A stretch of DNA of 64,000 bases from Candidatus Levyibacteriota bacterium (GCA_027459725.1 DAIDHK010000002.1:35752-99751), one strand, 5' to 3'. Positions 20,481-33,753 are shown, counted from the stretch's first letter. Notes: a model not told the origin generated them from the sequence alone. Translations and numbers: made by a program.

Positions 20481-20642
20481 CTATACTTTCACTCTTTAAT
20501 CGTTGAATCATGGGAAAAATTATAGAAAGAAATAAAAGTTTTGGATAATAGATAACTAAGTTTTTGTAAAAAAGCATTTATACATTTTCTTATATGAATC
20601 CTACTAATTTTTAATAGAATATATACTTAATAGTTTAATAAT

Positions 20643-21236
20643 GTGTCTATTATGACCAAGTTAAATGATTTTAAGAAGATTTACGAGAAAATCAATAGAT
20701 ATATTAACCCACATTATCTGCTCCCACTTCTCTTCATACCATTTATCATGTCAGCAGGTAGTATTTTACTTCCCCAAACTACTAATGCACAAAATACTAA
20801 TTTCCAGGAAATATCTAATTCCATGTTAATTAAACCCTCCCATACACATATAACTTATAATGACAATTTGCCCTCACCCCATAATCCAAATCGAGCAATC
20901 TGGTATCCCGTAACACTAACGAACAGCAACATGAGTTCTTATTATTTTTCTTCCTCGCATAACACTACCTTTTCAGGTACCATAGAAAATTACTCATATA
21001 ATCAACAACATAATGTATTGATTTTGATAAGCATGATTAATAGTAATAATATGACTGTCGCAAAAAAAAGCTGGAAAAATATAAGTCTTGCTCCCTTCCA
21101 AATGTTGAATATCAGACTTACTTCCCCCTTAAATCTAAATAGTGGTAAATATTATGTTAATATAGGAGTTTATACTCCTGAAGGGAGTAAATTACTCGGC
21201 TGGTACCCTCATTATCAAACCTTTATCGTCAGCTAG
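20643..21236 (+). CDS. Secreted hypothetical protein
   Basis: 197 aa. Hydrophobic signal-like segment ending TTNAQ. Confidence 0.45.
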   Translation: MSIMTKLNDFKKIYEKINRYINPHYLLPLLFIPFIMSAGSILLPQTTNAQNTNFQEISNSMLIKPSHTHITYNDNLPSPHNPNRAIWYPVTLTNSNMSSYYFSSSHNTTFSGTIENYSYNQQHNVLILISMINSNNMTVAKKSWKNISLAPFQMLNIRLTSPLNLNSGKYYVNIGVYTPEGSKLLGWYPHYQTFIVS

Positions 21237-21297
21237 TAACTTCATATAACTTAATATATAATTTCTACTTTTTTCTTCTTGCTCAGTTAATTAAACT

Positions 21298-24200
21298 GTG
21301 TACATAATAAATTTAATACTTCAGATTATTATGTGGCATTTAAGATACTTAGTTATAGTTTTCATTTTTAGTCTTTTTTTTCTGTTAAATTCATCTTATG
21401 CATTTGCGACTGATGGATATTTTGTAATTGGAACGGGTGCAGGCGGGGGTGGAGCTGGAGGTTCCACAGGAGCAACCGGAGGTAACGGCGGAAACGCGGA
21501 TGTAACTATAAACCTAGCCACTAGTTCAGCAAATAATGTAATTTTTGGCAACGGAAGTGGCGGTGGGGCAGGTGGCAGATCTATTGGGTTCACCCCGGAT
21601 GTACGTGGGGGACATGGGGGTAGTGGCAATAACACACTTATAGGGGGATCTGGCAATGATATAATTTTCGGCCACGGATTTAATGGCAGAGACACCTCAG
21701 ATGGAGCATATTTTGCTGGCAATGGGGGTCTGGGTGGAGGAGGAGGCGGTGGTGGCGGCGGTGGATTTGGTATTTCTCCAGGTGGTGCAGGAGGTGGTAT
21801 ATGTGGGGGTGGTGGCGGAGCAGGGACTGATAACGGTGGCGGCGGTGGAATTCTAGTTACATGTAATGGAGCTAATATAGGAGGTAATGCCAATTACAGC
21901 TATGGTGGTAATGGAGGAAACTCTGGATATGATTGGCTAAACAGCCAGGGACTGGGTGGTACATATTCTAGCTACAATGGAGGAGGAGGAGGAGGATTTG
22001 GAGGAGCTACAGGAGGAACCGGATCTACCCCAGCAGGTAATGGTGACACCAAACAACACTGGTACTATGATGCGAATGGTTTAATTTATAAATACTTTAC
22101 TTTATCTGTATTACAGAACATTATGACCAACTACCCTAATTATGGTACTGGAAGCGCCACCATTAACGGTAAAGGAGGAAGTAATGAATTATATGGGCTT
22201 GGTACTGACACTACATTTATTATTGATTCAGCTGATAATGCAACTCAGGATAGAATTTGGGATTTTCATGGTAACGATAAACTATTGTTAGAAACAAATG
22301 GTCAAACAGTGGCAACTGTTGACGTAAATCATATAGTTTCAGGTGCTACTACTGGCGATTATGGATCAGGCGTCGCCAACAATGATACTCAATTTACTTT
22401 TGGAAATACCACAGTTGATCTGATAGGAGTAACATATTCTTTAAGCGCTAGTCCTAATGGAACTGTTAATGCAGTTAACCATCCTCCTACTATCTCATTA
22501 AATAGTACACCCTTAGCTTATACTCCTAGTGCAAGTGCAACTCAACTTGACTCTTCCGGATCTGTCAATGATCCAGACGGAGATAGCAACTGGAATGGTG
22601 GAACGCTGGTGGCCCAAATAACATCTAACTCCATTAGCCAAGACACATTATCCCTAAGCGGGACTAATATTTCCATAGATGGGACGATATTGAAATATAA
22701 TGGTAACCCTGTTGGTGCTATCTATCCCAGTGGCGGTTCTGTAACTGGCAATGGAATATTAACCTTAACTTTTGATAGTGGGGCTACTAATGCCATTGTC
22801 CAGGATATGTTGCAAAATATACGATTTTATACAAATACAGCTGGAACTTATAATCGCATTGTGACTGTGACTGCAACCGATTATGCGGGTGCATCTGCAT
22901 CGGCATACCGGGAAGTCGATGTTGCCGGCGCAGGATCTATTACACTTTATACAGTAAACGCAAATGCCGCTGTAGGAGGCTCAATAAGTCCCACTAGCTG
23001 GAATGTTGTTAGCGGCAGTACTTATCAGTTCAGTATCACACCATCCACTGGATATAGTATCGGCTCTGTGACAGGCTGTAGCGGCTCAATCAGTGGTAAT
23101 ACATATACCACAGGAAATATAGGCTCAGCCTGTGACATTTCAGCCAGCTTTACCCCCAATACTTACACTATGGATTTCAACAGCCAAGGAGGCAATTCTG
23201 TGAGCTCTATCTCTCAAGGTTACAATTCATCATTGACATTGCCAAGCGCTACAAAAGGGGGTTACACATTGTCTAGCTGGAATACAGCCCCAGACGGTAG
23301 TTTAACTTCGTACTCTCCTGGATCAAGCATCAATATGCCCTATAATGGAATTACTCTTTACGCACAATGGGTCATCGAAAATACATCTTCCAACAGCAGC
23401 TCATCAAGTAATAATTCAAATTCCATTAATAGTACTAATCCACCTGCATGTTCTGAAGCCATTCCTACCGGCACTCCTAATATTTATGAATTGAATCCCA
23501 CCACTAATTCAGTAATACTGTATTTTACTCCTGTTTCGAATGCTAATAGTTATTATATTCGCTATGGGACTGATTCCAGCGAGAATCAATTTGCTACTTC
23601 ATTTTCTGATTCAGATCATAGTGGTGCGGTGAGTTTTACCATAAACGATTTGCTACCTGGTTTAACATATTATTTTTCTGTCAGAGGTGGAAATGGCTGC
23701 GCACCAGGAGATTGGTCAACTACATCTTCAGTACGAACAACTTCTATTCAAAGTCTTTCTACCGGGCTATCGGCTAGTCCATCAAATGTCATTCCCACTC
23801 CCGATCAAAACAAAAAAATCAATATTGTTTCTGAAAAGCTGACGACTCAACCCTCAAGTGTTTGTTCATATACTGTACAGTCCGGAGATAGCTTGTGGGA
23901 AATTGCTCAAAATAAACTCAACAATGGTACTCAATACCAAATCTTGGAAAAATTAAATAATTTAACTTCACCTTTAATCTCTTCCGGGCAAGTTTTAAAA
24001 TTACCATGTAATAATCAGCCACAAACATTAGTCCAGGCACAAAATGAAATAAAGCAAACAGGTATAGATTTAAATGTTCAGGTTTTGAGTATGGCTGGTA
24101 CTCCAATGTCAGGTGTCTGGGTAACTCTTCATTCCAAGGTACAGAAAGCCTTAACTGATAAAAACGGAGTTGCACACTTTATAAATATAGATACTGGTCA

Positions 24201-24426
24201 CCATCAGGTAATATTGGCTTACAATGGATTTAACGGTGAACAAAATATTTCTATTACCGGTAAACAAAAACAACAGACTTTAACATTAAGAGTACAGCTA
24301 AATAATACAACACTAACACCTTATGTATGGGGTTTGATAGGCGCTCTAATATCTATAATAATTGTTTTAGTATTAATAATATTCTTACTTTTTAAGAAAA
24401 AACACAAAACTAAAAAGATTGAGTAA
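21298..24426 (+). CDS. Large multi-domain cell-surface protein (Gly-rich RTX-like repeats, InlB B-repeats, Fn3-like, LysM, C-terminal TM anchor)
   Basis: 1042 aa. Signal peptide. About 200 codons of GGxGG repeats including the RTX-like nonapeptide GGSGNDIIFG. A divergent InlB B-repeat (VNANAAVGGSISP...GYSIGSVTGC) and a Listeria-Bacteroides repeat (GYTLSSWNTAPDGS...TLYAQW). LysM (YTVQSGDSLWEIAQ...). C-terminal helix LIGALISIIIVLVLIIFLLFKKKHK. Confidence 0.75.
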   Translation: MYIINLILQIIMWHLRYLVIVFIFSLFFLLNSSYAFATDGYFVIGTGAGGGGAGGSTGATGGNGGNADVTINLATSSANNVIFGNGSGGGAGGRSIGFTPDVRGGHGGSGNNTLIGGSGNDIIFGHGFNGRDTSDGAYFAGNGGLGGGGGGGGGGGFGISPGGAGGGICGGGGGAGTDNGGGGGILVTCNGANIGGNANYSYGGNGGNSGYDWLNSQGLGGTYSSYNGGGGGGFGGATGGTGSTPAGNGDTKQHWYYDANGLIYKYFTLSVLQNIMTNYPNYGTGSATINGKGGSNELYGLGTDTTFIIDSADNATQDRIWDFHGNDKLLLETNGQTVATVDVNHIVSGATTGDYGSGVANNDTQFTFGNTTVDLIGVTYSLSASPNGTVNAVNHPPTISLNSTPLAYTPSASATQLDSSGSVNDPDGDSNWNGGTLVAQITSNSISQDTLSLSGTNISIDGTILKYNGNPVGAIYPSGGSVTGNGILTLTFDSGATNAIVQDMLQNIRFYTNTAGTYNRIVTVTATDYAGASASAYREVDVAGAGSITLYTVNANAAVGGSISPTSWNVVSGSTYQFSITPSTGYSIGSVTGCSGSISGNTYTTGNIGSACDISASFTPNTYTMDFNSQGGNSVSSISQGYNSSLTLPSATKGGYTLSSWNTAPDGSLTSYSPGSSINMPYNGITLYAQWVIENTSSNSSSSSNNSNSINSTNPPACSEAIPTGTPNIYELNPTTNSVILYFTPVSNANSYYIRYGTDSSENQFATSFSDSDHSGAVSFTINDLLPGLTYYFSVRGGNGCAPGDWSTTSSVRTTSIQSLSTGLSASPSNVIPTPDQNKKINIVSEKLTTQPSSVCSYTVQSGDSLWEIAQNKLNNGTQYQILEKLNNLTSPLISSGQVLKLPCNNQPQTLVQAQNEIKQTGIDLNVQVLSMAGTPMSGVWVTLHSKVQKALTDKNGVAHFINIDTGHHQVILAYNGFNGEQNISITGKQKQQTLTLRVQLNNTTLTPYVWGLIGALISIIIVLVLIIFLLFKKKHKTKKIE
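21430..22030 (+). repeat. GGN codon-repeat tract (poly-Gly coding) inside the surface-protein gene
   Basis: Runs of ggt/ggc/gga/ggg codons. It is locally GC-rich and strand-asymmetric, and it creates a spurious Pro-rich antisense ORF. Confidence 0.7.
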
Positions 24427-24497
24427 ACTTGGTGATGAAACTTTGTTGTACTTTGACAGAAAAATCTCCTTATATTCTGTTAAACTATACATTCGTA

Positions 24498-25037
24498 ATG
24501 AAAAAAATCTTAGCACACTACTGGCGTTATTTGAGGCTTCCCAAACATATTCAATTCTTTATTATGCGTTTTTTAAATGATGAGTTTTTAGTAGGAGTAA
24601 TAGCCGTCATTTTTAATAATAAAAATCAAATTTTGCTACTAGAACATACATATAGACAAACTCCTTGGAGCCTGCCTGGAGGATATCTAAAAGCAGGTGA
24701 ACATCCTAAAGAAGGTGCTGAACGTGAGATTCGGGAAGAAACAAGTATGAAAGTAAAAGTGGATAAGTTACTGGAGACTTCTACGGACCCGCAGACTGCA
24801 CGATTAGAAATAAGTTGTTATGGTAAATTTATTTCAGGTAAATTCAAACCATCAGATGAGGTAATAAATTTTGGCTTTTTTGATTACGATAGTCTGCCCA
24901 TGATTGGCAAAAGACAAAAAAAGTTAATTGAAAAAGCTATGCGATATAGTAACAGATCAGTACGTTTAAGCAAAAAACAACAACTCAAGAAGATATTACT
25001 AAACAGTTTTTATAAGGTATTCTCCAATATCCACTAA
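24498..25037 (+). CDS. NUDIX hydrolase (start uncertain; track ORF begins at TTG 24429)
   Basis: Nudix box LPGGYLKAGEHPKEGAEREIREETSMKV. Confidence 0.65.
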   Translation: MKKILAHYWRYLRLPKHIQFFIMRFLNDEFLVGVIAVIFNNKNQILLLEHTYRQTPWSLPGGYLKAGEHPKEGAEREIREETSMKVKVDKLLETSTDPQTARLEISCYGKFISGKFKPSDEVINFGFFDYDSLPMIGKRQKKLIEKAMRYSNRSVRLSKKQQLKKILLNSFYKVFSNIH

Positions 25038-25041
25038 TGAA

Positions 25042-26466
25042 TTATTTAAAACTAGATAACTCTCCCCAACGCTTACCGGTCTTAACTTCAACAACTAATG
25101 GAACAGCCAAAGGATAAACACAACAAAGAACATCTTTTATTTCATTAATTACTTTCTTCATTCTGTGATTATCCTTCTCAGGGATTTCAAATACCAAATC
25201 GTCATGAATCTGAAGTAGCAAAAAAACATCTGGATATATATCTAGAATCTTTTCTTGGACATCCACCATAGCTTTTTTCATGAGATCAGCTGCAGATCCT
25301 TGTACCGGGTAATTCATTAATACACGTCTCATATTGTTACTGATAAATTTCTGACCAGGAAATTCGAAGACATAGCGTCGACGGCCAAGCAATGTTTCGA
25401 CTACTCCATTGAGTTTCGCATTTTTTAAGTACTCATCATAGTATGTCTTGATACTGGGATAAGAGATATAAAAATTTTTAATAAACTGTGCCGCATCAGC
25501 TTCGGAAATATGTAATCCTGTACTCATCCCGTAGCTACTCATACCATAAATGATGCCAAAATTAATTGTTTTACCAACTGCTCTTTGTTGCTTGGAGACC
25601 TGTTCGTAAGAAATATTAAATAATTTGCTGGCTGTCAGTGTATGTACGTCTTGGTTATTTTTAAATGCTTTAATTAATTCTTTTTCATCTGCTAAATGCG
25701 CCAGAACTCTTAACTCCTGCTGTGAATAATCAAAAGAGACTAAATTCATTCCCTCGGAAGCAACAAAACATGATTTTATTTCCAGTCCAATCGGAGAAGA
25801 TACAGGAATATTTTGCAGATTCGGATTAGATGAAGCTAAACGGCCAGTGTTTACATAAACCTGGTTATATGTAGTATGCACACGATCATTTTGATCTGTT
25901 TTTGTTATTAAACTTTCTACGTAAGTCGATCTTAGCTTAGTTAATTCTCGATAACTCAGTATATGTGAGATTATAGCAAACTGATCATTATATAATGATA
26001 ATTCTGATTCATTGGTTGCATATTTGCCCGTTTTAGTCTTACCTAATGGCACTCCGACTTTTTCAACCAAAAAATGTCCCAACTGAATAGGTGAATTAAT
26101 ATTTAATCCCCCACCTGTTTGCTTATTAATCTCTTCTTCTAAGTCTAAGATCATTCCCTCAATCTCTTTTCCAACTTGCTTTAATTGTTTGGTATTAAGT
26201 AGTATTCCTCGTTGCTCCATCTTAAATAGAACTTTAGCTAGAGGCATTTCAATCTTATTAAATAATTTTTTAAGTTGAGAATTTTTGTCAAGTAGTTGTT
26301 CTTGAACACGAGCCAATTCCAATAAGTTATCAACTTTGTATTTTTTAAAGGTTTCTTCTTGAGTACCAATAGAATGACCATCACTAAGCAAAGCCTCGGC
26401 AATATAGCAATCAAAGTTTGCCGAAAAATCTTTGGAAGTTTTGCTATCCCAGATTGGTTTAAGCAT
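25042..26466 (-). CDS. polA: DNA polymerase I, polymerase domain only (no 5'-3' exo and no complete 3'-5' exo domain)
   Basis: 474 aa. Begins near the ExoIII-like DCYIAEAL motif, followed by IEMPLAKVLFKMEQRGI. Family-A motifs RRxxK (RAVGKTINFGIIYG), QIHDDLVFE and YPVQGSAAD are present. An in-frame TGA lies 8 codons upstream of the ATG. Confidence 0.8.
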   Translation of the reverse strand: MLKPIWDSKTSKDFSANFDCYIAEALLSDGHSIGTQEETFKKYKVDNLLELARVQEQLLDKNSQLKKLFNKIEMPLAKVLFKMEQRGILLNTKQLKQVGKEIEGMILDLEEEINKQTGGGLNINSPIQLGHFLVEKVGVPLGKTKTGKYATNESELSLYNDQFAIISHILSYRELTKLRSTYVESLITKTDQNDRVHTTYNQVYVNTGRLASSNPNLQNIPVSSPIGLEIKSCFVASEGMNLVSFDYSQQELRVLAHLADEKELIKAFKNNQDVHTLTASKLFNISYEQVSKQQRAVGKTINFGIIYGMSSYGMSTGLHISEADAAQFIKNFYISYPSIKTYYDEYLKNAKLNGVVETLLGRRRYVFEFPGQKFISNNMRRVLMNYPVQGSAADLMKKAMVDVQEKILDIYPDVFLLLQIHDDLVFEIPEKDNHRMKKVINEIKDVLCCVYPLAVPLVVEVKTGKRWGELSSFK

Positions 26467-26509
26467 CTTGCCGTTAGTATAGCGAAATCAAATGGGTTTG
26501 CCAATTATC

Positions 26510-27060
26510 TTCTGCTTTGTAATTGAGCCAAGCGCTGTGAAGCTCTTGTTACTGCCCGATCTGAGGTATAATATCCTAAAGTTTTTAGGATATTCTCTTC
26601 TAGAGTTTTACGTGGTTTAACGGTTAATTCTTTTACCACCTTATTACCAGGATTTATTTCCTCATTTTCCTGCAATTGAACCTGTTACAACTAATTTACT
26701 TATTCCCTCCTCACCCGCAGTACGCAATAAATTTAAAATTACTTCCACATTTATTCTGCAAGCAGCATCTCTATCTATAAGATTTAAACGGCAACTGGAT
26801 TGATTATTACTCCATCTTTACCCACCTCGTGGGCAAATCTATTCAAACTTTCACTATCACTTAAGTCTCCCTGAACAAAACGAATATAGGGATATTAGCT
26901 GGATGGAAACAATTTCATTGTTTCAGTAGGATCACGCACAAGAGCTACAATTTCAGTTTGGGGAGTGTAGTCTGCATATCATGTAATCTCTGCTCCAATT
27001 CCGCCTGTTACTCAAGTAAGTCCCAATCTGACTGGCAAATAAAAACCTGTCTATAAATAT
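26510..27060 (-). pseudogene. Decayed NAD-dependent epimerase/dehydratase (SDR) gene
   Basis: Manual translation of the minus strand gives SDR pieces in three frames. They are TGGIGAEI (Rossmann), YPYIRFVQGDLSDSESLNRFAHEVGKDGVII, NVEVILNLLRTAGEEGISKLVVTGSIAG and the C-terminal KELTVKPRKTLEENILKTLGYY, separated by stops and frameshifts. Confidence 0.6.
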
Positions 27061-27158
27061 GACGATTTTGGAAAAATCTGAGCATATTAATTCATCGTTA
27101 CTTAAATTTCGTATAGAATACTGCCCTTCATTAACTTAATTTCTATGTTTACTGATTT

Positions 27159-28781: not shown

Positions 28782-29702
28782 TTAGTTCTTTGCCGATAAA
28801 ATTCTCCTTTGTAAATTTCTTTCCATGTATAAAACTTCTGGGGGGATCTGATCTTCTCTGATTATTCCTTTGGGATAAAGAATAAAATTACGATCGTGCG
28901 CTGTATGTCTTGTTGTATTAAGCATAACTGGATACATAGTATCAAAATATTGTTCTCTATCTTGATCAAGCAAGACTTGTGCTGAAACAGCAGATGAAGA
29001 TCCTTTTTTTATAGCCAAAATAGTACTTTTTTTTAGTCCTTCATTAATTCCTAAATCATAGCCTAAATTTGACAGACGACACGAAAAAAGGTCATGCGGA
29101 AGATAATTTTTATCTTTAGAATATTCCGTATCGGTTGTCCCTCGAAAAGTAGATTTAAAAATTCCTCCAGATACTAGTTTCCTATCTATCATGTCAATTG
29201 CTCGACTCGGATCAATACTATAAGCAATAGAAAATAGTGCTATTACTCCCCCCACGGAGTCATCAGCAATTCCTTCTAAAAGCTCTACCGATGTCAACTT
29301 CACATTCTCACTTCCCAGACCTTCATCTGAATCAAAAAGTGAGTGATATGCAAGATTAGTTGCTTTAAATTTTAATCCTTGTCCTTCTTTCGATCGAGAT
29401 ATAGCAGCAATTCCACGTGTTACACCAGCACCTATATCTAACACCACGTTACTGAAGGGATTATGTTTGACATAATTCAAAAAAAGACTTAATCCACCTA
29501 AATCTGCAATATAACTTTCTTCGTCTCTTGCTCTATTAAATAAACTTTTTCGCTCTAACGTTCTTACCATGCTCAATTGTTTTGCTAAAACTTTTCTTTC
29601 GTATGAGTATTTTATATGATATGGATCACCACTTAATGATTCTGTCATTATTTTGTTTTGTTCTATATCTAGACTATGACAAATAAAGATTAATCTTAAC
29701 AA
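28782..29702 (-). CDS. Class I SAM-dependent methyltransferase (substrate unknown)
   Basis: 306 aa. Motif I VLDIGAGVTRG. No DPPY/NPPY DNA-methyltransferase motif seen. Confidence 0.5.
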   Translation of the reverse strand: MLRLIFICHSLDIEQNKIMTESLSGDPYHIKYSYERKVLAKQLSMVRTLERKSLFNRARDEESYIADLGGLSLFLNYVKHNPFSNVVLDIGAGVTRGIAAISRSKEGQGLKFKATNLAYHSLFDSDEGLGSENVKLTSVELLEGIADDSVGGVIALFSIAYSIDPSRAIDMIDRKLVSGGIFKSTFRGTTDTEYSKDKNYLPHDLFSCRLSNLGYDLGINEGLKKSTILAIKKGSSSAVSAQVLLDQDREQYFDTMYPVMLNTTRHTAHDRNFILYPKGIIREDQIPPEVLYMERNLQRRILSAKN

Positions 29703-30062
29703 ATAAAGATTAATTTGTATATATTCTTACTTTTGAAAATATATTATAAGTTCTATTTAAATTATGGGAATATATAAAAATACAAAAAATATTTTCAATA
29801 TATTAAACTACTCATAGATACGATACCACTGATAATAATCTACTAAACTAAACAATAATTTAAATGAAAGTTATATCGATAATGTATTAACTTGAGAGAA
29901 GTAAATTTTAAATAGCAAATAGTTTTTTTGTCTTAAGAATGCGGGGATTTCTAAGACATACGCTGTTTTTAGCTTCAATATCTACTATAAACACCTAATG
30001 ATAGGATATGCTTTTTCACAAATTATGTCAACTAGAGTATAATTATAATAAAGATTAATTAT

Positions 30063-30989
30063 ATGAGCTGGAACGAAGTTTTAAATGATTTTATTTTACA
30101 AGCACAACAAAATAACCTAAAAACTTCAACGTATCCAAAAGAGTGGGATAGCTTAAGATTGAGAATATCTTTTGGTATGGGAGCACCTGCAAGAATTCCT
30201 TGGGTTGCATTTGTAGCTCCTGATATGGAAGTTAGTAAAGGATTTTATCCGGTTTATTTGTATTATAAAGACTCAAATACCCTAATACTCTCGTACGGCA
30301 TAAGCGAAACAGAGGAATTTGGGAAATCTTGGCCTTCGGAAATAATGAGCTCCGCACAAACTATAACAGCTTATTTTGATAAAAAAGTTGCCAGATACGG
30401 AGACTCATTTGTTTTTAAAGCTTATAAAGTAAATGTTAAGGGAAATAAGGTTGAACTTGCTTATCCGGAAAGTAAAAAAGTTGCAAGTTCACAAGATATT
30501 GAATCAGATTTAGATACTCTTTTAGATTATTACAAAAATGCAGTTAACCTTAGTTCAAGTAGAATATCTCCTGAACTAAGTCAGGGTTTATTTTATATGG
30601 AAAAGCAATTAGAGGATTTTCTGATTGCTAACTGGCCACATACTGAACTTGGAAAGAAATTAGATTTAATAATTGAAGAAGGAGAATTATTAAGCCAACA
30701 ATATAAAACTGATTTAGGACCAATTGATATTTTAGCAAAGGATAAAAAAACCGGAAGTTATGTTGTAATTGAGCTTAAAAAGAACCAAACCAGTGATGAC
30801 ACCATTGGACAATTAGCTCGATATATGGGTTGGATAAGACTTAATAAGAAAGATGATAAAGTAAGAGGCATTATTATCGCCGGTCAATATGACAAAAAAT
30901 TAGATTATGCTTTAAAAATGGTTCCCAATACAGAGGTGTTTATTTATGAGGTTGATTTTAAATTAAACTCTTTTGAAAGAGTGTCATAA
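30063..30989 (+). CDS. DUF3578 (McrB-N-like modified-DNA recognition domain) fused to a NucS/DUF91-like PD-(D/E)xK nuclease domain; candidate modification-dependent (type IV-like) restriction endonuclease
   Basis: 308 aa. N-terminal half LRISFGMGAPARIPWVAFVAPDMEVSKGFYPVYLYYKDSNTLILSYGIS matches the DUF3578/MrcB_N pattern (SFGxG...IPWIAF...KGxYxVYLF...LSL). C-terminal half GPIDILAKDKKTGSYVVIELKK...IGQLARYMGW...VRGIIIAG matches the NucS C-terminal nuclease core (GxIDIL-x-D...VVIELK...Q...Y...RGILIA). Preceded by a ~360-bp AT-rich intergenic region. Confidence 0.6.
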   Translation: MSWNEVLNDFILQAQQNNLKTSTYPKEWDSLRLRISFGMGAPARIPWVAFVAPDMEVSKGFYPVYLYYKDSNTLILSYGISETEEFGKSWPSEIMSSAQTITAYFDKKVARYGDSFVFKAYKVNVKGNKVELAYPESKKVASSQDIESDLDTLLDYYKNAVNLSSSRISPELSQGLFYMEKQLEDFLIANWPHTELGKKLDLIIEEGELLSQQYKTDLGPIDILAKDKKTGSYVVIELKKNQTSDDTIGQLARYMGWIRLNKKDDKVRGIIIAGQYDKKLDYALKMVPNTEVFIYEVDFKLNSFERVS

Positions 30990-31227
30990 AAAAACGCTTT
31001 ATGTCGCACAATCAATGTAGTGCGACGCGAATTTGAGACTAGAGAGAAATTGTAAAAATAAGTTTGAGGCTAATTAACTTACTATGAGTTATAGATTTTA
31101 ATGTTGTTTCTTTTACCAAGATTCTTGTAATTCGCCAACTATTTACGAATTATGGAATATATGCCAGAATCTGAACAGGAAATATATTCCAGACTTAGCT
31201 TCAGCTTTGAAGCTAGATAGATGAATT

Positions 31228-31605
31228 ATGGAAGAACTAATACTTAAAGCTGGAACATTAGGATTTAGTGTATTAGTTTATTCGAATAGGATTGAATATA
31301 AGCCTATTTTTGGCAAAAATATTATTCCTCTTAACAAAATAAACGATATTGAAACTCCTCCAGTTTGGGGCACAAGCTGGGTAAACATAGTCTTAAATAG
31401 CGGAGAGAAAATTCAGCTTACAGTAGGCACGAATAATGTTAAGAAATTTGTTAGTGTCGTCTCTGGACTATTAGAACAAAACAGCAACCCCAAAGCCCCT
31501 ACAAACACCCTAGATGACCTTGAAAAACTGTCTAAGTTGAAAGATAAGGGAATTATTACTCAAAAAGAATTTGATAAGAAGAAAAAACAACTTCTAAACC
31601 TCTAA
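31228..31605 (+). CDS. SHOCT-domain protein with N-terminal PH-like domain
   Basis: 125 aa. C-terminus LEKLSKLKDKGIITQKEFDKKKKQLL is the SHOCT pattern. Nested inverted repeats lie upstream (31153-31190 and 31196-31215). Confidence 0.5.
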   Translation: MEELILKAGTLGFSVLVYSNRIEYKPIFGKNIIPLNKINDIETPPVWGTSWVNIVLNSGEKIQLTVGTNNVKKFVSVVSGLLEQNSNPKAPTNTLDDLEKLSKLKDKGIITQKEFDKKKKQLLNL

Positions 31606-31614
31606 TTCCAGATT

Positions 31615-32070
31615 TTGTCCGACGCTAAAATCGACTCGCGATATAATTGTATTATGGATACGAACACAGTTGGCAAACCAGCGCTAACTCAGGAACAAAT
31701 TGATGAAGTATTCCGCAAAATAGAACCTTATCTTAAAACCGGAGTAAGTCTTAATAAAGCTTGTCTTTCTGCTGGAATTGCAAAATCAACGGCTTACGAT
31801 TTATATAGAGAAAATGAGTCATTTGCGGAAAAAGTTGATACAGCTAGAAACTATTGCTCAATTCTTGCAAATAGCGTATTTTTAAAGTCTCTTGAGAGAA
31901 TAAATTCAATTGCCGGAACAAGAGAATTAACAGATGGAGAGCTAAAACTACTTGAATGGCTGATTGCCCTACCAATATTCCTTCACGTTTCAACTCCTCC
32001 TGAATCTCATACTTTGACTTCTCAAGATCAGATACTCGTATATCATAAACTCTTTGTTGTATCCACTTAG
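31615..32070 (+). CDS. HTH-domain protein (3' part probably spurious read-through into the transposase fragment)
   Basis: 151 aa. Predicted HTH GVSLNKACLSAGIAKSTAYDLYRE. The C-terminal ~40 codons overlap the antisense transposase ORF. Confidence 0.4.
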   Translation: MSDAKIDSRYNCIMDTNTVGKPALTQEQIDEVFRKIEPYLKTGVSLNKACLSAGIAKSTAYDLYRENESFAEKVDTARNYCSILANSVFLKSLERINSIAGTRELTDGELKLLEWLIALPIFLHVSTPPESHTLTSQDQILVYHKLFVVST

Positions 32071-32350
32071 GTGTCGTCATCTCTCGCACTTTATGTGGCC
32101 TTCGTGTGTGTTTATCATCCTCCAATGTCTGAAGATTCCGTGGATTGTATCTCTTCTTCCAGCGATAAAATACACTTTTTGATATTCCAAAATGTCGACA
32201 CGTTCCCTCTGCATTTTTATCATGACTGAAATACCAATCAATCCAGAGCAAACGTCTCTGTGCATCTTTAGAAAGCTGTGCCGCTTGAATAACTGGGACT
32301 GGTAATATGTTGTAGTGACGCATAACTGCGTCATTGTATCGTTTGGACAA
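31844..32350 (-). mobile_element. Truncated IS transposase, N-terminal HTH only (IS481/IS3-like), no DDE domain
   Basis: CRHFGISKSVFYRWKKRY is the classic transposase HTH. DDKHTRRPHKVREMTTPKWIQQRVYDIR...GQSAIQVVLALH follows. No catalytic rve region downstream; its 3' part is out-of-frame read-through. Confidence 0.5.
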
Positions 32351-32459
32351 TTTACTCTCAACCGTTCTTTATCTATCCCAACCTAGACAAATAGAAGCTT
32401 GGATTTCTCTAAGCCTCTATTCAACTTCCCCAGTGTTCCCCTAATGGTTTCTCGCTGCC

Positions 32460-32490
32460 AATAAAAAAACACCTTTTTACAGGTGTTTCG
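32460..32490 (-). terminator. Rho-independent terminator downstream of ftsZ
   Basis: Stem aacacct / aggtgtt (32468-32474 and 32481-32487) with a 6-nt loop. On the minus strand it is followed by TTTTTTTATT. Confidence 0.6.
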
Positions 32491-32511
32491 CGTAAATCGT
32501 AGCTAATTAGA

Positions 32512-33753
32512 CTAGTTTTTTTGTCTTAGAAATGCAGGGATGTCCCAGGCATCTTCATCAGAAGCTTCTTCTGATCCATTCTGCTTAGGAGTTGTTGCTT
32601 GATTGTTATTACCATTATTATTCATTGCATTCCCATTATTCAAGAATGGGTTAGGTAACGTTTGGTTATTGTTTGTATTTTGAGAAGAAGCTGAATTATT
32701 ATTTTGTTGAGACTGAGGAGCCGACTGGGCTTTTTCTTCAGTTATCCAACGATTAGCTGGAGGCACCATAAATTGCTGTAAATGCTGTTTGGAGTTATCA
32801 AAACCCGTTGCTACTACAGTGATACGCATAGAACTATTCATCGTCTCATCGATAGTAGCACCAAAAATAATATTGGCATCTGGATCAGCAGAACTAGCAA
32901 TAATTTTAGCCGCTTCATCTACTTCTGTCATTGTTAAGTCACTACCACCTACGATATTAAATAATACCCCTCGCGCTCCCTCCATAGAAATCTCTAAAAG
33001 AGGTGAGGCAATAGCAGCACGTGCAGCTGCTTGAGCACGATTCTCACCATCAGCTATACCAATACCCATGAGAGTAGAGCCTGCGTTAGCCATAATAGCT
33101 TTCACATCGGCAAAATCAACATTAATCAAACCGGGAAGTGTAATAATCTCTGAAATACCCTGTACACCTTGATTCAAAACAGAATCAGCTACTTTAAAAG
33201 CCTCTAACAATGATAATTTTCGATCAACTACATCCAGTATTCGCTGATTAGGAATCACAATTAATGTATCAACTTTATCTTTAATATTTTCAATTCCTTC
33301 TTCTGCAGCGACCATACGACGTGTACCTTCAAATGAAAACGGCTTGGTTACTACGGCCACGGTTAGCGCTCCTACCTCTTTAGCTATTTGGGCGACTACT
33401 GGGGCAGCCCCTGTTCCTGTTCCTCCACCCATCCCGGCTGTGATAAAAACCATATCAGATCCTTGTAAGGTTTGTTTAATTTTTTCTGCTGACTCTTCAG
33501 CAGCTTGACGTCCAGTTTCTGGATCTCCCCCTGAACCTAATCCCTTGGTATATTGTTCTCCTATTTGAATTTTGGTTTCAGAATTATTACGCAATAATGC
33601 CTGGGCATCTGTATTCATTGCCACGAAATCAACTCCTTGAATATTTCCGTTGGCAATCATTGAGTTGACAGCATTTCCACCACCACCACCTACTCCTATA
33701 ACTCTGATTTTGGCGAAATTTGAAGTTTGAGGTCGTATCAGCATGTTGCACAA
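32512..33753 (-). CDS. ftsZ: Cell division GTPase FtsZ
   Basis: 413 aa. GGGGGNAVN and tubulin signature [15 protein letters not shown]-rich disordered linker, then the C-terminal peptide DIPAFLR. Confidence 0.95.

What the first reader, a model, noticed from the sequence alone, without database searches (positions are those of the whole stretch)
29703..32510. Small accessory island (nuclease, SHOCT protein, HTH protein, truncated transposase) inserted between a methyltransferase gene and the 3' end of the dcw cluster
A ~360-bp very AT-rich spacer (29703-30062) precedes the nuclease gene. The island is plus-stranded within a minus-strand context. It ends in an IS-transposase N-terminal fragment (HTH only) followed by the ftsZ terminator. 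Hairpins at 31003-31026 and nested inverted repeats (ggaatatat...atatattcc, 31153-31190; tagcttca..tgaagcta, 31196-31215) sit between the genes. This looks like a transposon-delivered defence cassette whose transposase has since decayed.
Basis: partly seen in the sequence, partly recalled or inferred. Interest (0 to 1): 0.6.

Follow-up and report, generated by a model that had tools for sequence, protein, structure and literature searches.

The report
Decayed integrated island at ftsZ end
A 2.6-kb foreign islet carrying a methylated-DNA-sensing nuclease was spliced into the last codons of the cell-division gene ftsZ of an uncultivated (Levybacteria-like) bacterium, most likely by a site-specific recombinase that has since been lost; it is a tidy but fairly ordinary case of a decayed mobile element.

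Summary
Two corrections apply: the transposase fragment is on the minus strand, and the 'methyltransferase' call is weak.

A 40-nt imperfect direct repeat (33/40; 29920-29959 and 32513-32552) duplicates the last 13 codons of ftsZ and brackets the island (alignment score 45; shuffles 19±2.4).

The nuclease combines the 5-methylcytosine-binding N-terminal domain of McrB with a NucS-like PD-(D/E)XK domain. Its base-pocket and catalytic residues are intact, so it looks like a stand-alone type IV restriction enzyme. About 2000 homologs sit in variable neighbourhoods, never beside the other island genes.

The 'HTH protein' is a 3'-truncated phage small-terminase-like gene. In 3 of 4 retrievable relatives it lies upstream of a large serine recombinase whose gene runs into the 3' end of a convergent tRNA gene. 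The window has the same topology, with ftsZ as target.

There are no terminal inverted repeats, no second IS copy, no DDE domain and no composition shift.

Best reading: a small recombinase-type integrative island entered the ftsZ 3' end and supplied a replacement end. An IS481-type insertion and one deletion later removed the recombinase. No empty site could be found in relatives. This is a new member of known kinds and of modest interest.

The parts
28782..29648 (-). Flanking methyltransferase-like gene. The likely ATG is at 29648; the ORF as listed starts at a TTG at 29702. Probably chromosomal, not part of the island.
   Evidence: ORF. The only family hit is a sub-threshold Methyltransf_11 match (E 0.0099). 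The motif VLDIGAGVTRG is visible in the sequence. No homolog was found next to ftsZ in any relative.
29703..29919 (.). Very AT-rich spacer (17.5% GC). Inferred to be the original sequence downstream of ftsZ and the upstream region of the methyltransferase-like gene.
   Evidence: Its position left of repeat copy A is the basis for the inference.
29920..29959 (-). Repeat copy A (attL-like): a displaced or duplicated ftsZ 3' end. It encodes [12 protein letters not shown] followed by Tyr instead of a stop codon. It forms a 12-6-12 near-palindrome, TGTCTTAAGAAT-GCGGGG-ATTTCTAAGACA.
   Evidence: Among 83 ftsZ loci, only the window carries a second copy of this peptide motif.
30015..30043 (+). Promoter-like site (TTCACA-17-TATAAT, 11 of 12 matches) 20 nt upstream of the nuclease ATG.
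   Evidence: This is a consensus match only.
30063..30989 (+). Cargo gene 1: a single-chain nuclease. Residues ~7-160 form a McrB-N (ADAM/DUF3578) 5-methylcytosine-binding domain. Residues ~178-300 form a NucS_C/YhcG-like PD-(D/E)XK domain (D222, E237, K239).
   Evidence: McrB-N residue roles come from PMC3424535.
31003..31026 (+). 7-bp GC-rich hairpin just after the nuclease stop codon. It has no U-tract, so it is at best a weak terminator.
31153..31215 (+). Two adjacent hairpins (31153-31190 and 31196-31215) in the 238-nt leader of the SHOCT gene. Role unknown.
   Evidence: region z -2.63. No Rfam family matches.
31228..31605 (+). Cargo gene 2: a 125-aa protein with an unassigned N-terminal domain and a C-terminal SHOCT motif.
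   Evidence: Pfam SHOCT E 2.8e-8. PHROGs 2700 and 888, both of unknown function. It is absent from all 80 nuclease-homolog loci.
31654..31974 (+). 3'-truncated small-terminase-like (phBC6A51/Sf6-type homeodomain) gene. It lacks the final ~40-70 codons seen in relatives. The ORF then reads on to 32070 through foreign sequence.
31946..31974 (.). Deletion junction where the truncated HTH gene (+) meets the truncated transposase gene (-). The two family-like reading frames overlap here on opposite strands.
   Evidence: HTH family homology runs to nt ~31974. The Pfam HTH_32 match of the transposase runs to residue 135, which is nt 31946.
31975..32350 (-). IS481-family transposase N-terminal HTH fragment (about 125-135 codons). 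The DDE domain is missing. The ORF as listed is 31844-32350.
   Evidence: NCBIfam IS481 positions 2-125 of 284, E 6.9e-13. HTH_28 and HTH_32 hits. No minus-strand ORF continues below 31844.
32466..32489 (-). Intrinsic terminator 23 nt after the ftsZ stop codon. On the integration model it is supplied by the element or by the IS, not native.
   Evidence: The post-stop sequence shows no significant similarity to that of the relative with 93%-identical FtsZ or of any other relative.
32513..32552 (-). Repeat copy B (attR-like): the functional 3' end of ftsZ ([12 protein letters not shown], stop codon at 32512-32514).
   Evidence: The C-terminus WDIPAFLRQ[KR]N is near-invariant among the 120 closest FtsZ homologs.
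32512..33753 (-). ftsZ, the target gene and last gene of the dcw cluster.
   Evidence: Pfam Tubulin and FtsZ_C. Homologs.

Best explanation
The segment 29960-32512 is the remnant of a small site-specific integrative island that inserted by a Campbell-type crossover into the last codons of ftsZ.

Integration (inferred). The circular element carried an attachment site that mimics the ftsZ 3' end. After integration, ftsZ therefore kept an in-frame ...IPAFLRQKN-stop end plus a terminator. A second copy of that end was left at the far side of the island. The recombinase was most likely a large serine recombinase encoded just downstream of the small-terminase-like HTH gene and reading towards ftsZ, as in related islands.

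Decay (inferred). An IS481-type element later landed between the recombinase gene and ftsZ. One deletion, running from inside the transposase gene to codon ~107 of the HTH gene, then removed the recombinase and the transposase catalytic domain and locked the island in place.

What remains is cargo with its own promoter:
- A single-chain modification-dependent (type IV-like) nuclease. Its McrB-type domain would flip out and recognise modified cytosine, and its NucS-like PD-(D/E)XK domain would cut the DNA. This would restrict phages or other DNA carrying modified cytosines.
- A small SHOCT-domain protein of unknown role, not functionally tied to the nuclease.

Shown here: the repeat, the domain content, both truncations, and the recombinase linkage in relatives. 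Inferred: the recombinase type in this particular island, the order of events, and the nuclease's substrate.
For: (1) The direct repeat.
- It is 33/40 identical with 2593-nt spacing, and no other 40-mer in the window reaches even 28/40. It scores 45 against 19±2.4 in shuffles, with 0 of 2000 reaching that score.
- Copy A still encodes IPAFLRQKN. The 3 differences in those 27 nt are all synonymous, while the 4 differences in the preceding 9 nt are all non-synonymous. All 7 mismatches fall in the last 24 positions (p 0.019).
- The two half-sites next to the island are perfect 12-nt inverted repeats. The reconstructed attP would be TGTCTTAGAAAT-GCNGGG-ATTTCTAAGACA.

(2) The HTH gene family.
- There are 206 relatives. 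Their homology to the window gene stops at codon ~104, and they continue for 40-70 more residues.
- 24 of 42 match small-terminase PHROG 4102, and 18 of 42 match Pfam Sf6_terminase.
- The predicted fold (pLDDT 89) finds its best matches among viral small-terminase and phBC6A51-type homeodomain proteins, at marginal significance.

(3) Recombinase linkage in relatives.
- In L169/L170, L167/L168 and L171 the homolog is followed on the same strand by a 514-566-aa Resolvase+Recombinase+Zn_ribbon_recom protein.
- Two of these recombinases, compared with each other, are 39% identical.
- In all three cases the recombinase stop codon lies inside the 3' end of a convergent tRNA gene. This is the same layout as HTH-> ... 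<-ftsZ in the window.
- These islands are small, housekeeping genes lie within about 5-7 kb around them, and one carries a defence-type ATPase (mad3/AriA-like, E 1.5e-34).

(4) The nuclease.
- Its N-terminal domain matches McrB-N structure 3SSC (E 7e-21).
- The pocket residues of PMC3424535 are kept: W49->W47, S60->S58, Y64->Y62, L68->L66, I82->I80, T85->T83, Y117->Y111. D84 is replaced by E82.
- D222, E237 and K239 are at least 95% conserved in 120 homologs.
- It hits the PADLOC candidate defence family PDC-S02 (E 6.5e-46).
- About 2000 homologs are found in bacteria and archaea, in variable neighbourhoods enriched in SLFN-type helicase, HIT, MazG-like and HNH genes.
- A NucS-like nuclease fused to a modified-base sensor has been shown to protect against phage (PMC12191111).

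(5) The region after ftsZ differs in every relative examined, so it is a variable region.
Against: - No recombinase gene or fragment exists in the window. The recombinase type is inferred only from relatives whose HTH proteins are 43-50% identical.
- In those relatives the recombinase gene overlaps the target gene. In the window the sequence next to ftsZ is a terminator plus the IS fragment, so an extra IS insertion exactly at the junction has to be assumed.
- No long flanking repeat could be found for the three related islands. Typical serine-recombinase sites share only a few bases, so a 40-nt repeat is not a hallmark of that family and would fit a tyrosine integrase equally well.
- The central spacers of the two copies differ by one base.
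- Copy A lacks the stop codon (TAT).
- No empty site (ftsZ directly followed by the spacer and the methyltransferase-like gene) was found.
- The island shows no composition shift (GC 34.2% against 34.7%; tetranucleotide z 0.15-1.07).
- The reconstructed attP was not found in viral contigs.
- Nuclease specificity is untested.
Confidence: 0.55

Rival explanations
1. Remnant of a full-size temperate phage. A prophage integrated at the ftsZ 3' end, using either a serine or a tyrosine integrase. Almost all of it was later deleted, leaving a moron-type nuclease, a SHOCT gene and the 5' part of its small terminase gene.
For: The HTH family includes a genuine phage small terminase. In L172 the homolog is followed by a large terminase (phrog_2, E 4.5e-32) and a portal gene. 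The SHOCT protein matches phage protein families. The ftsZ-end repeat fits any Campbell-type integration.
Against: Three of four retrievable relatives are small islands in which the HTH gene is followed by the recombinase, not by a large terminase. The window contains no other phage gene near the island, and the nuclease and HTH proteins find nothing in GenBank phages or IMG/VR. A much larger deletion would be required.
Confidence: 0.15
2. One reading: an IS481-family element, or a composite or one-ended transposon built on it, carried the cassette in, and the transposase then decayed.
For: An IS481-type N-terminal fragment sits at the ftsZ-proximal end. The ftsZ stop codon lies in ACTAGT, and CTAG is the classical IS481 target (own knowledge). 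The closest relative, L081, also has an IS-type HTH ORF after ftsZ.
Against: - There is only one IS fragment and no second copy.
- There are no significant terminal inverted repeats.
- The fragment ends at an internal deletion junction with a truncated HTH gene, so it cannot define a transposon end.
- A 40-nt diverged repeat that preserves the FtsZ C-terminal peptide is unlike DDE-transposase target duplications, which are 4-15 bp (own knowledge).
- The cargo genes are never linked to such a transposase in 80 nuclease loci or in 7 HTH loci.
Confidence: 0.1
3. Recombinase-independent Campbell insertion. A circularised DNA fragment from a related bacterium happened to contain an ftsZ 3' end with neighbouring accessory genes. 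It integrated by a single homologous (RecA-type) or microhomology crossover in the 16-nt identical core.
For: The two copies share a perfect 16-nt block, TAGTTTTTTTGTCTTA. The diverged part of copy A looks like an ftsZ end from another lineage, with synonymous changes only in IPAFLRQKN. No recombinase is present in the window.
Against: 16-30 nt is very short for homologous recombination. This model does not explain the palindromic half-sites, nor the HTH-recombinase linkage with identical topology in relatives.
Confidence: 0.1
4. No insertion at all. The gene order is ancestral for this lineage, and the ftsZ-end copy arose by a local duplication or rearrangement.
For: There is no compositional signal and no empty site in any relative.
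Against: - The repeat precisely brackets a block of opposite-strand genes.
- Two of those genes are truncated mobile-element genes fused at a deletion junction.
- The nuclease is patchily distributed across bacteria and archaea at 55-73% identity, which is typical of horizontal transfer.
- None of the four distinct ftsZ neighbourhoods recovered from relatives contains any island gene.
Confidence: 0.07

Closest known systems
SCC elements (e.g. SCCmec) of staphylococci, integrated by the large serine recombinases CcrAB/CcrC into the 3' end of rlmH (orfX) (own knowledge)
   Same: A small cargo island lies at the 3' end of a conserved housekeeping gene. The reading frame of that gene is preserved. 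The island is flanked by direct repeats of the gene's end with adjacent inverted repeats. Cargo includes restriction and defence genes. Relatives of the window island encode large serine recombinases.
   Different: The target is ftsZ rather than rlmH. The recombinase is missing here. The recombinase in relatives is coupled to a small-terminase-like HTH gene. The host is a candidate-phyla-radiation bacterium.
e14 and phage 21 at icd of E. coli, and Bxb1 at groEL1 of mycobacteria: elements that insert in a gene's 3' end (own knowledge)
   Same: Campbell-type insertion into the 3' end of an important gene. e14 and phage 21 supply a diverged replacement 3' end, so the gene stays functional and a pseudo-3' end remains at the other junction.
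   Different: e14 and phage 21 use tyrosine integrases and are full or defective prophages. In the window the duplicated segment is only ~30-40 nt and the element is 2.6 kb.
E. coli McrBC, a type IV restriction system (PDB 3SSC; PMC3424535, PMC11090510)
   Same: The N-terminal domain is homologous to McrB-N/ADAM (E 7e-21), with the 5mC pocket residues conserved.
   Different: There is no AAA+ GTPase domain and no McrC partner. The reader domain is fused directly to a NucS-like PD-(D/E)XK nuclease, so cleavage cannot depend on GTP-driven translocation.
Single-chain modification-dependent endonucleases built as 'sensor domain + nuclease', such as MspJI, PvuRts1I, SRA/EVE-HNH enzymes and the NucS-like END-Mag (PMC6765204, PMC12191111)
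   Same: The same design logic: a base-flipping or modified-base sensor fused to a small nuclease, acting as a single gene without a methyltransferase.
   Different: The sensor here is McrB-N/ADAM rather than SRA, EVE/PUA or iEndoIII. I found no characterised member with this exact pair. PADLOC PDC-S02 matches only the nuclease half.
NucS/EndoMS mismatch endonuclease
   Same: The C-terminal PD-(D/E)XK domain matches (Pfam NucS_C E 1.1e-14; NCBIfam E 2e-16).
   Different: The N-terminal NucS DNA-binding and dimerisation domain is replaced by McrB-N. Scores are far below the NucS equivalog cut-offs (60 bits against 216).
Phage-inducible chromosomal islands and other phage satellites that carry their own small terminase and an integrase (own knowledge)
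   Same: In relatives, a small terminase-like gene lies next to an integrase-type recombinase in a small island inserted at a tRNA gene.
   Different: The islands are far smaller (5-7 kb or less). No capsid-remodelling or replication genes were recognised, and no helper phage is known. The satellite reading is speculative.
IS481-family insertion sequences
   Same: The N-terminal HTH region of the transposase matches.
   Different: There is no DDE domain, no inverted repeats and no target duplication. It is a dead fragment.

Membership tests
Type IV (modification-dependent) restriction endonuclease, single-chain sensor+nuclease type | A domain that recognises a modified base | tested here: met
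   McrB-N/ADAM homology: PDB 3SSC E 7e-21, Pfam MrcB_N E 5.8e-11, NCBIfam McrB residues 7-183, E 1.5e-24. Equivalents of pocket residues W49, S60, Y64, L68, I82, T85 and Y117 are conserved.
Type IV (modification-dependent) restriction endonuclease, single-chain sensor+nuclease type | An intact endonuclease catalytic motif | tested here: met
   PD-(D/E)XK motif: D222 (IDIL) and E237-x-K239 (VIELK) are at least 95% conserved in 120 homologs. NucS_C E 1.1e-14.
Type IV (modification-dependent) restriction endonuclease, single-chain sensor+nuclease type | Cleaves modified but not unmodified DNA and protects against phage | not testable with these tools
   Needs biochemistry and plaque assays.
McrBC system | McrB AAA+ GTPase domain | tested here: not met
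   The NCBIfam McrB match covers only model positions 7-183 of 459 (86.6 bits against a cut-off of 637). The rest of the protein is a NucS-like nuclease.
McrBC system | Adjacent McrC (DUF2357 + PD-(D/E)XK) partner gene | tested here: not met
   The neighbours are a SHOCT protein and an AT-rich spacer. No McrC-type family appears among the neighbours of 80 homologs.
NucS/EndoMS | NucS N-terminal domain and a full-length equivalog score | tested here: not met
   Only the C-terminal domain matches: 59.8 bits against a cut-off of 216, residues 203-279.
PADLOC candidate defence family PDC-S02 | Full-length match to a family model | tested here: inconclusive
   E 6.5e-46, but only residues 148-302 align to positions 152-306 of the 308-position model. 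The N-terminal half differs.
Large-serine-recombinase integrative element (SCC-like or phage-like) | Encodes a large serine recombinase | tested here: not met
   There is no recombinase or remnant in the window. One is present next to the HTH homolog in 3 of 4 related contexts. The window island can therefore be filed only as a presumed derivative.
Large-serine-recombinase integrative element (SCC-like or phage-like) | Element bounded by att sites with dyad-symmetric half-sites around a short crossover core | tested here: inconclusive
   The direct repeat is highly significant. The half-sites next to the island are perfect 12-nt inverted repeats, but that inverted repeat alone is only marginal (49 of 2000 shuffles reach it), and the spacers differ by 1 nt.
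Large-serine-recombinase integrative element (SCC-like or phage-like) | Insertion relative to an empty site in related genomes | tested here: inconclusive
   The four distinct ftsZ neighbourhoods recovered from relatives (five loci) lack the island genes, but they also lack the methyltransferase-like gene. The source assembly could not be retrieved.
IS481-family insertion sequence or composite transposon | DDE (rve) catalytic domain | tested here: not met
   Only model positions 2-125 of 284 are present. No further minus-strand ORF follows.
IS481-family insertion sequence or composite transposon | Terminal inverted repeats, a short target duplication, and a second IS copy for a composite | tested here: not met
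   The best inverted repeat between the island ends is 12 nt and is reached by 49 of 2000 shuffles. There is no second copy in the window.
Phage small terminase subunit (Sf6/phBC6A51-type) | N-terminal HTH/homeodomain DNA-binding domain | tested here: met
   phrog_4102 E 5.4e-5 for the window protein, and 24 of 42 relatives match it. Pfam Sf6_terminase matches 18 of 42 relatives. The best fold matches, at marginal significance, are viral small-terminase and phBC6A51-type homeodomain proteins.
Phage small terminase subunit (Sf6/phBC6A51-type) | C-terminal oligomerisation part and an adjacent large terminase gene | tested here: not met
   The C-terminal 40-70 residues are missing, and there is no large terminase in the window. 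Only relative L172 has one.
SHOCT-domain protein | C-terminal SHOCT motif | tested here: met
   Pfam SHOCT 33.7 bits against a cut-off of 27, residues 97-123.

The most novel reading that the evidence does not exclude
The window island and its relatives (L167, L169, L171) would form a previously undescribed family of minimal elements (7 kb or less) in candidate-phyla-radiation bacteria. Each is built from a small-terminase-like DNA-binding protein and a large serine recombinase whose gene ends inside the target gene. They would possibly be phage satellites that use the terminase-like protein to be packaged. They rewrite the 3' ends of essential genes, and the window shows the first case in which a mobile element supplies the FtsA-binding C-terminal peptide, the stop codon and the terminator of FtsZ.
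Probability: 0.2. Interest if true: 0.55.

Novelty: new member of a known kind. Interest (0 to 1): 0.35.

Why it matters
The case shows how a streamlined, uncultivated bacterium picked up and fixed a defence gene. The element went into the last codons of an essential cell-division gene without damaging it, and then lost its own mobility genes.

The McrB-N + NucS-like fusion is abundant (about 2000 homologs) but has not, as far as I could find, been characterised. It could be a compact new modification-dependent nuclease for detecting modified cytosines.

The linkage between the terminase-like gene and the serine recombinase, with the recombinase stop codon inside the target gene, is a useful marker for finding small integrative islands (or satellites) in candidate-phyla-radiation genomes. 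It also points to new serine recombinases with defined natural attachment sites.

None of this overturns current understanding.

Tried and rejected
- Retrieving the source contig by exact protein look-up (nuclease, its database twin P0001, FtsZ) returned nothing on record.
- Synteny test. 80 species-representative ftsZ loci have FtsZ at most 58% identical and contain no island or methyltransferase-like gene. Closer relatives from the protein database gave four distinct neighbourhoods (L081; L082/L083; L164; L165; FtsZ 72-93% identical), each with a different gene after ftsZ. No empty site was found.
- Apparent conservation of the ftsZ terminator in L081. The blastn alignment ran 32 nt past the stop codon, but a dedicated alignment of the post-stop regions is not better than shuffles. 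I rejected this as evidence that the terminator is native.
- Terminal inverted repeats: none significant.
- Composition: the island is not deviant.
- Conserved nuclease + SHOCT/HTH operon: rejected. None of 80 nuclease loci has the other genes, and the neighbours are heterogeneous.
- Nuclease and HTH protein in IMG/VR and GenBank phages: no hits. The transposase fragment has no hit in plasmids. Only the nuclease half occurs on plasmids, fused to other N-termini.
- The word-index homolog search for the HTH protein found only the protein itself. The exhaustive search was needed.
- Recombinase remnants in the window: none.
- Left-end repeats of the three related islands: not found.
- The reconstructed attP palindrome in viral contigs: no match.
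- Rfam on the island: only chance-level hits.
- Literature search for ftsZ as an integration site: nothing relevant.

Full report
**1. What is there**

The window is low-GC (34.7%). Its FtsZ is closest to Levybacteria/Microgenomates-type proteins. The best relative is 93% identical, on the 3.2-kb contig L081. Species-representative genomes reach only 58%.

Between the end of the dcw cluster (ftsA and ftsZ, minus strand) and a minus-strand methyltransferase-like gene lie the following features:
- A 17.5%-GC spacer, 29703-29919.
- A 308-aa ORF, 30063-30989(+).
- A 238-nt structured spacer.
- A 125-aa SHOCT-domain ORF, 31228-31605(+).
- An HTH ORF starting at 31654(+).
- On the minus strand, a 168-aa ORF, 32350->31844, that matches only the N-terminal HTH region of IS481-type transposases: NCBIfam positions 2-125 of 284, plus Pfam HTH_28 and HTH_32.
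- A canonical terminator at 32489-32466(-), following the ftsZ stop codon at 32512.

The intergenic RNA folds better than shuffles (z -2.63) and matches no Rfam family. The transposase stub is on the minus strand. The 'methyltransferase' label rests on a sub-threshold Methyltransf_11 hit (E 0.0099), with nothing in NCBIfam or the PDB.

**2.

The strongest repeat in the region is a 40-nt direct repeat, 29920-29959 (copy A) and 32513-32552 (copy B), 33/40 identical.
- Copy B is the functional 3' end of ftsZ ([12 protein letters not shown]-stop).
- Copy A, read on the same strand, encodes [12 protein letters not shown] followed by Tyr.
- No other 40-mer in the 64 kb on either strand reaches even 28/40.
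- The local alignment scores 45, against 19.0±2.4 (maximum 31) in 2000 shuffles.
- Within the 27 nt encoding IPAFLRQKN, the three differences are all synonymous. The four differences in the preceding three codons all change the amino acid, at positions (W, D) that are near-invariant in the 120 closest FtsZ proteins.
- All seven mismatches lie in the ftsZ-body side of the repeat (p 0.019). A perfect 16-nt core, TAGTTTTTTTGTCTTA, sits on the other side.

Each copy can be written as 12-6-12:
- Copy A: TGTCTTAAGAAT-GCGGGG-ATTTCTAAGACA.
- Copy B: TGTCTTAGAAAT-GCAGGG-ATGTCCCAGGCA.

The two half-sites that face the island (A-right and B-left) are perfect inverted repeats of each other. As an inverted repeat on its own, this is only marginal (49 of 2000 shuffles reach it).

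Among 83 other ftsZ loci, none has a second copy of the C-terminal peptide motif outside the gene.

A direct duplication of a gene's 3' end bracketing foreign genes is the signature of a Campbell-type insertion into that end. The known parallels are e14 at icd and SCC elements at rlmH (own knowledge). The island proper is therefore about 29960-32512. The AT-rich spacer to its left is most simply the original sequence downstream of ftsZ.

**3. The cargo nuclease**

- Residues 7-123 align to the crystal structure of the E. coli McrB N-terminal domain (3SSC, E 7e-21). NCBIfam matches McrB positions 7-183 (E 1.5e-24).
- Sukackaite et al. (PMC3424535) identified residues that wall the 5-methylcytosine pocket or contact the flipped base: W49, A59/S60, Y64, L68, I82, D84, T85, Y117. 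These correspond here to W47, V57/S58, Y62, L66, I80, E82, T83 and Y111. All but two are identical.
- The intercalating Y41 is Met here. The paper notes that this position is not conserved among McrB-N homologs.
- Residues ~178-300 match NucS_C, YhcG_C and PDDEXK_4. D222, E237, K239 and a QTSDDT...GQxxRYMGW block are at least 95% conserved in 120 homologs.
- There is no GTPase domain and no McrC, so this is not McrBC. It is not NucS either (60 bits against a cut-off of 216).
- The PADLOC candidate family PDC-S02 matches the nuclease half only (E 6.5e-46). On plasmids the same nuclease half is fused to other N-termini.
- The exact fusion is abundant: 1977 hits, with the top 120 all about 300-320 aa, 64-73% identical and sharing the same Pfam domains. 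They come from Patescibacteria, Chloroflexota, Syntrophorhabdaceae and even Micrarchaeota.
- In 80 metagenomic loci, no homolog of the SHOCT, HTH, transposase or ftsZ genes is nearby. The immediate neighbours are heterogeneous, with a sprinkling of defence-island-type genes: SLFN-type helicase 7, HIT 6, MazG-like 5, HNH 3.

I infer a stand-alone, horizontally mobile, modification-dependent (type IV-like) endonuclease. It is analogous in logic to MspJI, PvuRts1I and SRA/EVE-HNH enzymes, and to the NucS-like END-Mag, which has been shown to protect against phage (PMC6765204, PMC12191111). The SHOCT protein is independent cargo of unknown role.

**4. The HTH gene identifies the vehicle**

- The word-index search found only the protein itself.
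- The exhaustive search found 206 relatives at up to 51% identity and 120-200 aa long. They align to query residues ~5-104 and then continue for another 40-70 residues with a conserved W-A-x-NS...EEFG segment. The window gene is therefore cut after codon ~104-107 (nt ~31965-31974), and the rest of its ORF is antisense of the transposase stub.
- The family matches phage small-terminase profiles: PHROG 4102 in 24 of 42 relatives, PHROG 1482 in 22 of 42, and Pfam Sf6_terminase in 18 of 42.
- A confident model (pLDDT 89) finds its best matches, at marginal significance, among viral small-terminase and phBC6A51-type homeodomain proteins.

Genomic context could be read for four relatives:
- In L172 the gene sits in a true phage module: large terminase (phrog_2, E 4.5e-32), then portal.
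- In L169/L170, L167/L168 and L171 it is followed on the same strand by a 514-566-aa large serine recombinase with Resolvase, Recombinase and Zn_ribbon_recom domains. The recombinase follows immediately in two cases and after two small genes in the third.
- The L167 and L169 recombinases are 39% identical to each other.
- In all three the recombinase stop codon lies 20-56 nt inside the 3' end of a convergent tRNA gene: Pro, Tyr, Pro.
- Housekeeping genes resume within a few kb on both sides, so these islands are at most about 5-7 kb.
- One island carries a mad3/AriA/GajA-type defence ATPase (E 1.5e-34).

The window has the same topology, with cargo, then HTH->, then [gap], then <-target gene 3' end, and with ftsZ in place of a tRNA.

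**5. Reconstruction**

The transposase stub and the HTH gene are both truncated, and they meet head-on at 31946-31974. That is a deletion junction, not a transposon end. No recombinase fragment survives.

The most economical history is:
1. A small island (cargo, terminase-like HTH gene, large serine recombinase) integrates into the ftsZ 3' end. Its attachment site mimics that end, so FtsZ keeps its conserved C-terminal peptide.
2. An IS481-type element inserts between the recombinase gene and ftsZ. The ftsZ stop codon lies in ACTAGT, and CTAG is the classical IS481 target (own knowledge). The terminator may belong to the IS end.
3. One deletion, from transposase codon ~130 to HTH codon ~107, removes the IS right half and the recombinase and immobilises the island.

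Steps 2 and 3 and the recombinase class are inferences.

The post-stop sequence next to ftsZ is not significantly similar to that of the 93% relative or of any other relative. This is compatible with that sequence being element-borne.

**6. What does not fit or could not be shown**

- No empty site was found. Each of the four distinct neighbourhoods recovered from relatives (FtsZ 72-93% identical) has a different gene after ftsZ: an IS3-type orfA, a glyoxalase, and two different genes of unknown function. None has the methyltransferase-like gene.
- The island is compositionally indistinguishable from its surroundings: GC 34.2% against 34.7%, tetranucleotide z 0.15-1.07.
- Flanking repeats of the three related islands were not found.
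- A 40-nt repeat is not specifically diagnostic of serine recombinases; a tyrosine integrase would also fit.
- The two spacers differ by one base, and copy A has lost the stop codon.
- The reconstructed attP is absent from IMG/VR.

**7. Verdict**

The island is real, and the flanking repeat of the ftsZ end gives positive evidence that it was inserted. The 'defence cassette' idea holds for the nuclease. The 'transposon-delivered' idea is not supported, and the IS fragment looks like a secondary hit that helped to kill the element.

Relative to what is known, this is a decayed member of the class of recombinase-driven islands that insert into gene 3' ends. It carries an uncharacterised but conventional-looking type IV nuclease. 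The unusual points are the target (the FtsA-binding tail of FtsZ) and the terminase-like/serine-recombinase module shared with small islands in candidate-phyla-radiation genomes. These make it mildly interesting rather than surprising.

Noticed in passing
L167:3323-6662, L169:10001-12267, L171:5714-7984: Three small islands in CPR-like contigs share one module. A small-terminase-like HTH gene is followed by a large serine recombinase whose stop codon lies inside the 3' end of a convergent tRNA gene (Tyr, Pro, Pro). One island also carries a mad3/AriA-like defence ATPase. These may be a family of minimal integrative elements or phage satellites.
   Followed up: partly
L081:2564-3179: In the closest relative (FtsZ 93% identical), ftsZ is followed after ~280 nt by an IS3-type orfA-like HTH ORF, and the contig ends there. 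Each of the four distinct ftsZ neighbourhoods recovered from relatives has a different gene after ftsZ. The end of the dcw cluster looks like an insertion hot spot in this lineage.
   Followed up: partly
window 20500-24500: This is the strongest tetranucleotide deviation in the window (z up to 5, GC up to 42%). It coincides with a 1042-aa ORF (21298-24426, +) encoding a surface-type protein with LysM, Listeria-Bacteroides repeat, fn3 and Ig-like domains.
   Followed up: partly
window 25042-27158: The DNA polymerase I-like ORF (25042-26466, -) is only 474 aa, covering the polymerase domain. The ~690 nt upstream of it, up to the GH8 gene, hold no long ORF. It may be a truncated or split polA.
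   Followed up: no
window 29679-29715 and 30047-30060: A 14-16-nt AT-rich motif, (ACA)AATAAAGATTAAT(T), occurs twice in tandem upstream of the methyltransferase-like gene and once immediately before the nuclease ATG. Matches of this length are expected by chance a few times in AT-rich DNA, so it may mean nothing.
   Followed up: no
window 32333-32361 (-): A promoter-like site (TTGAGA-17-TACAAT) sits just upstream of the dead transposase fragment. The 168-aa chimeric HTH ORF may therefore still be expressed.
   Followed up: no
L167:100-260: The start of this contig looks like a 16S rRNA gene fragment on the minus strand, close to the left side of the island.
   Followed up: no
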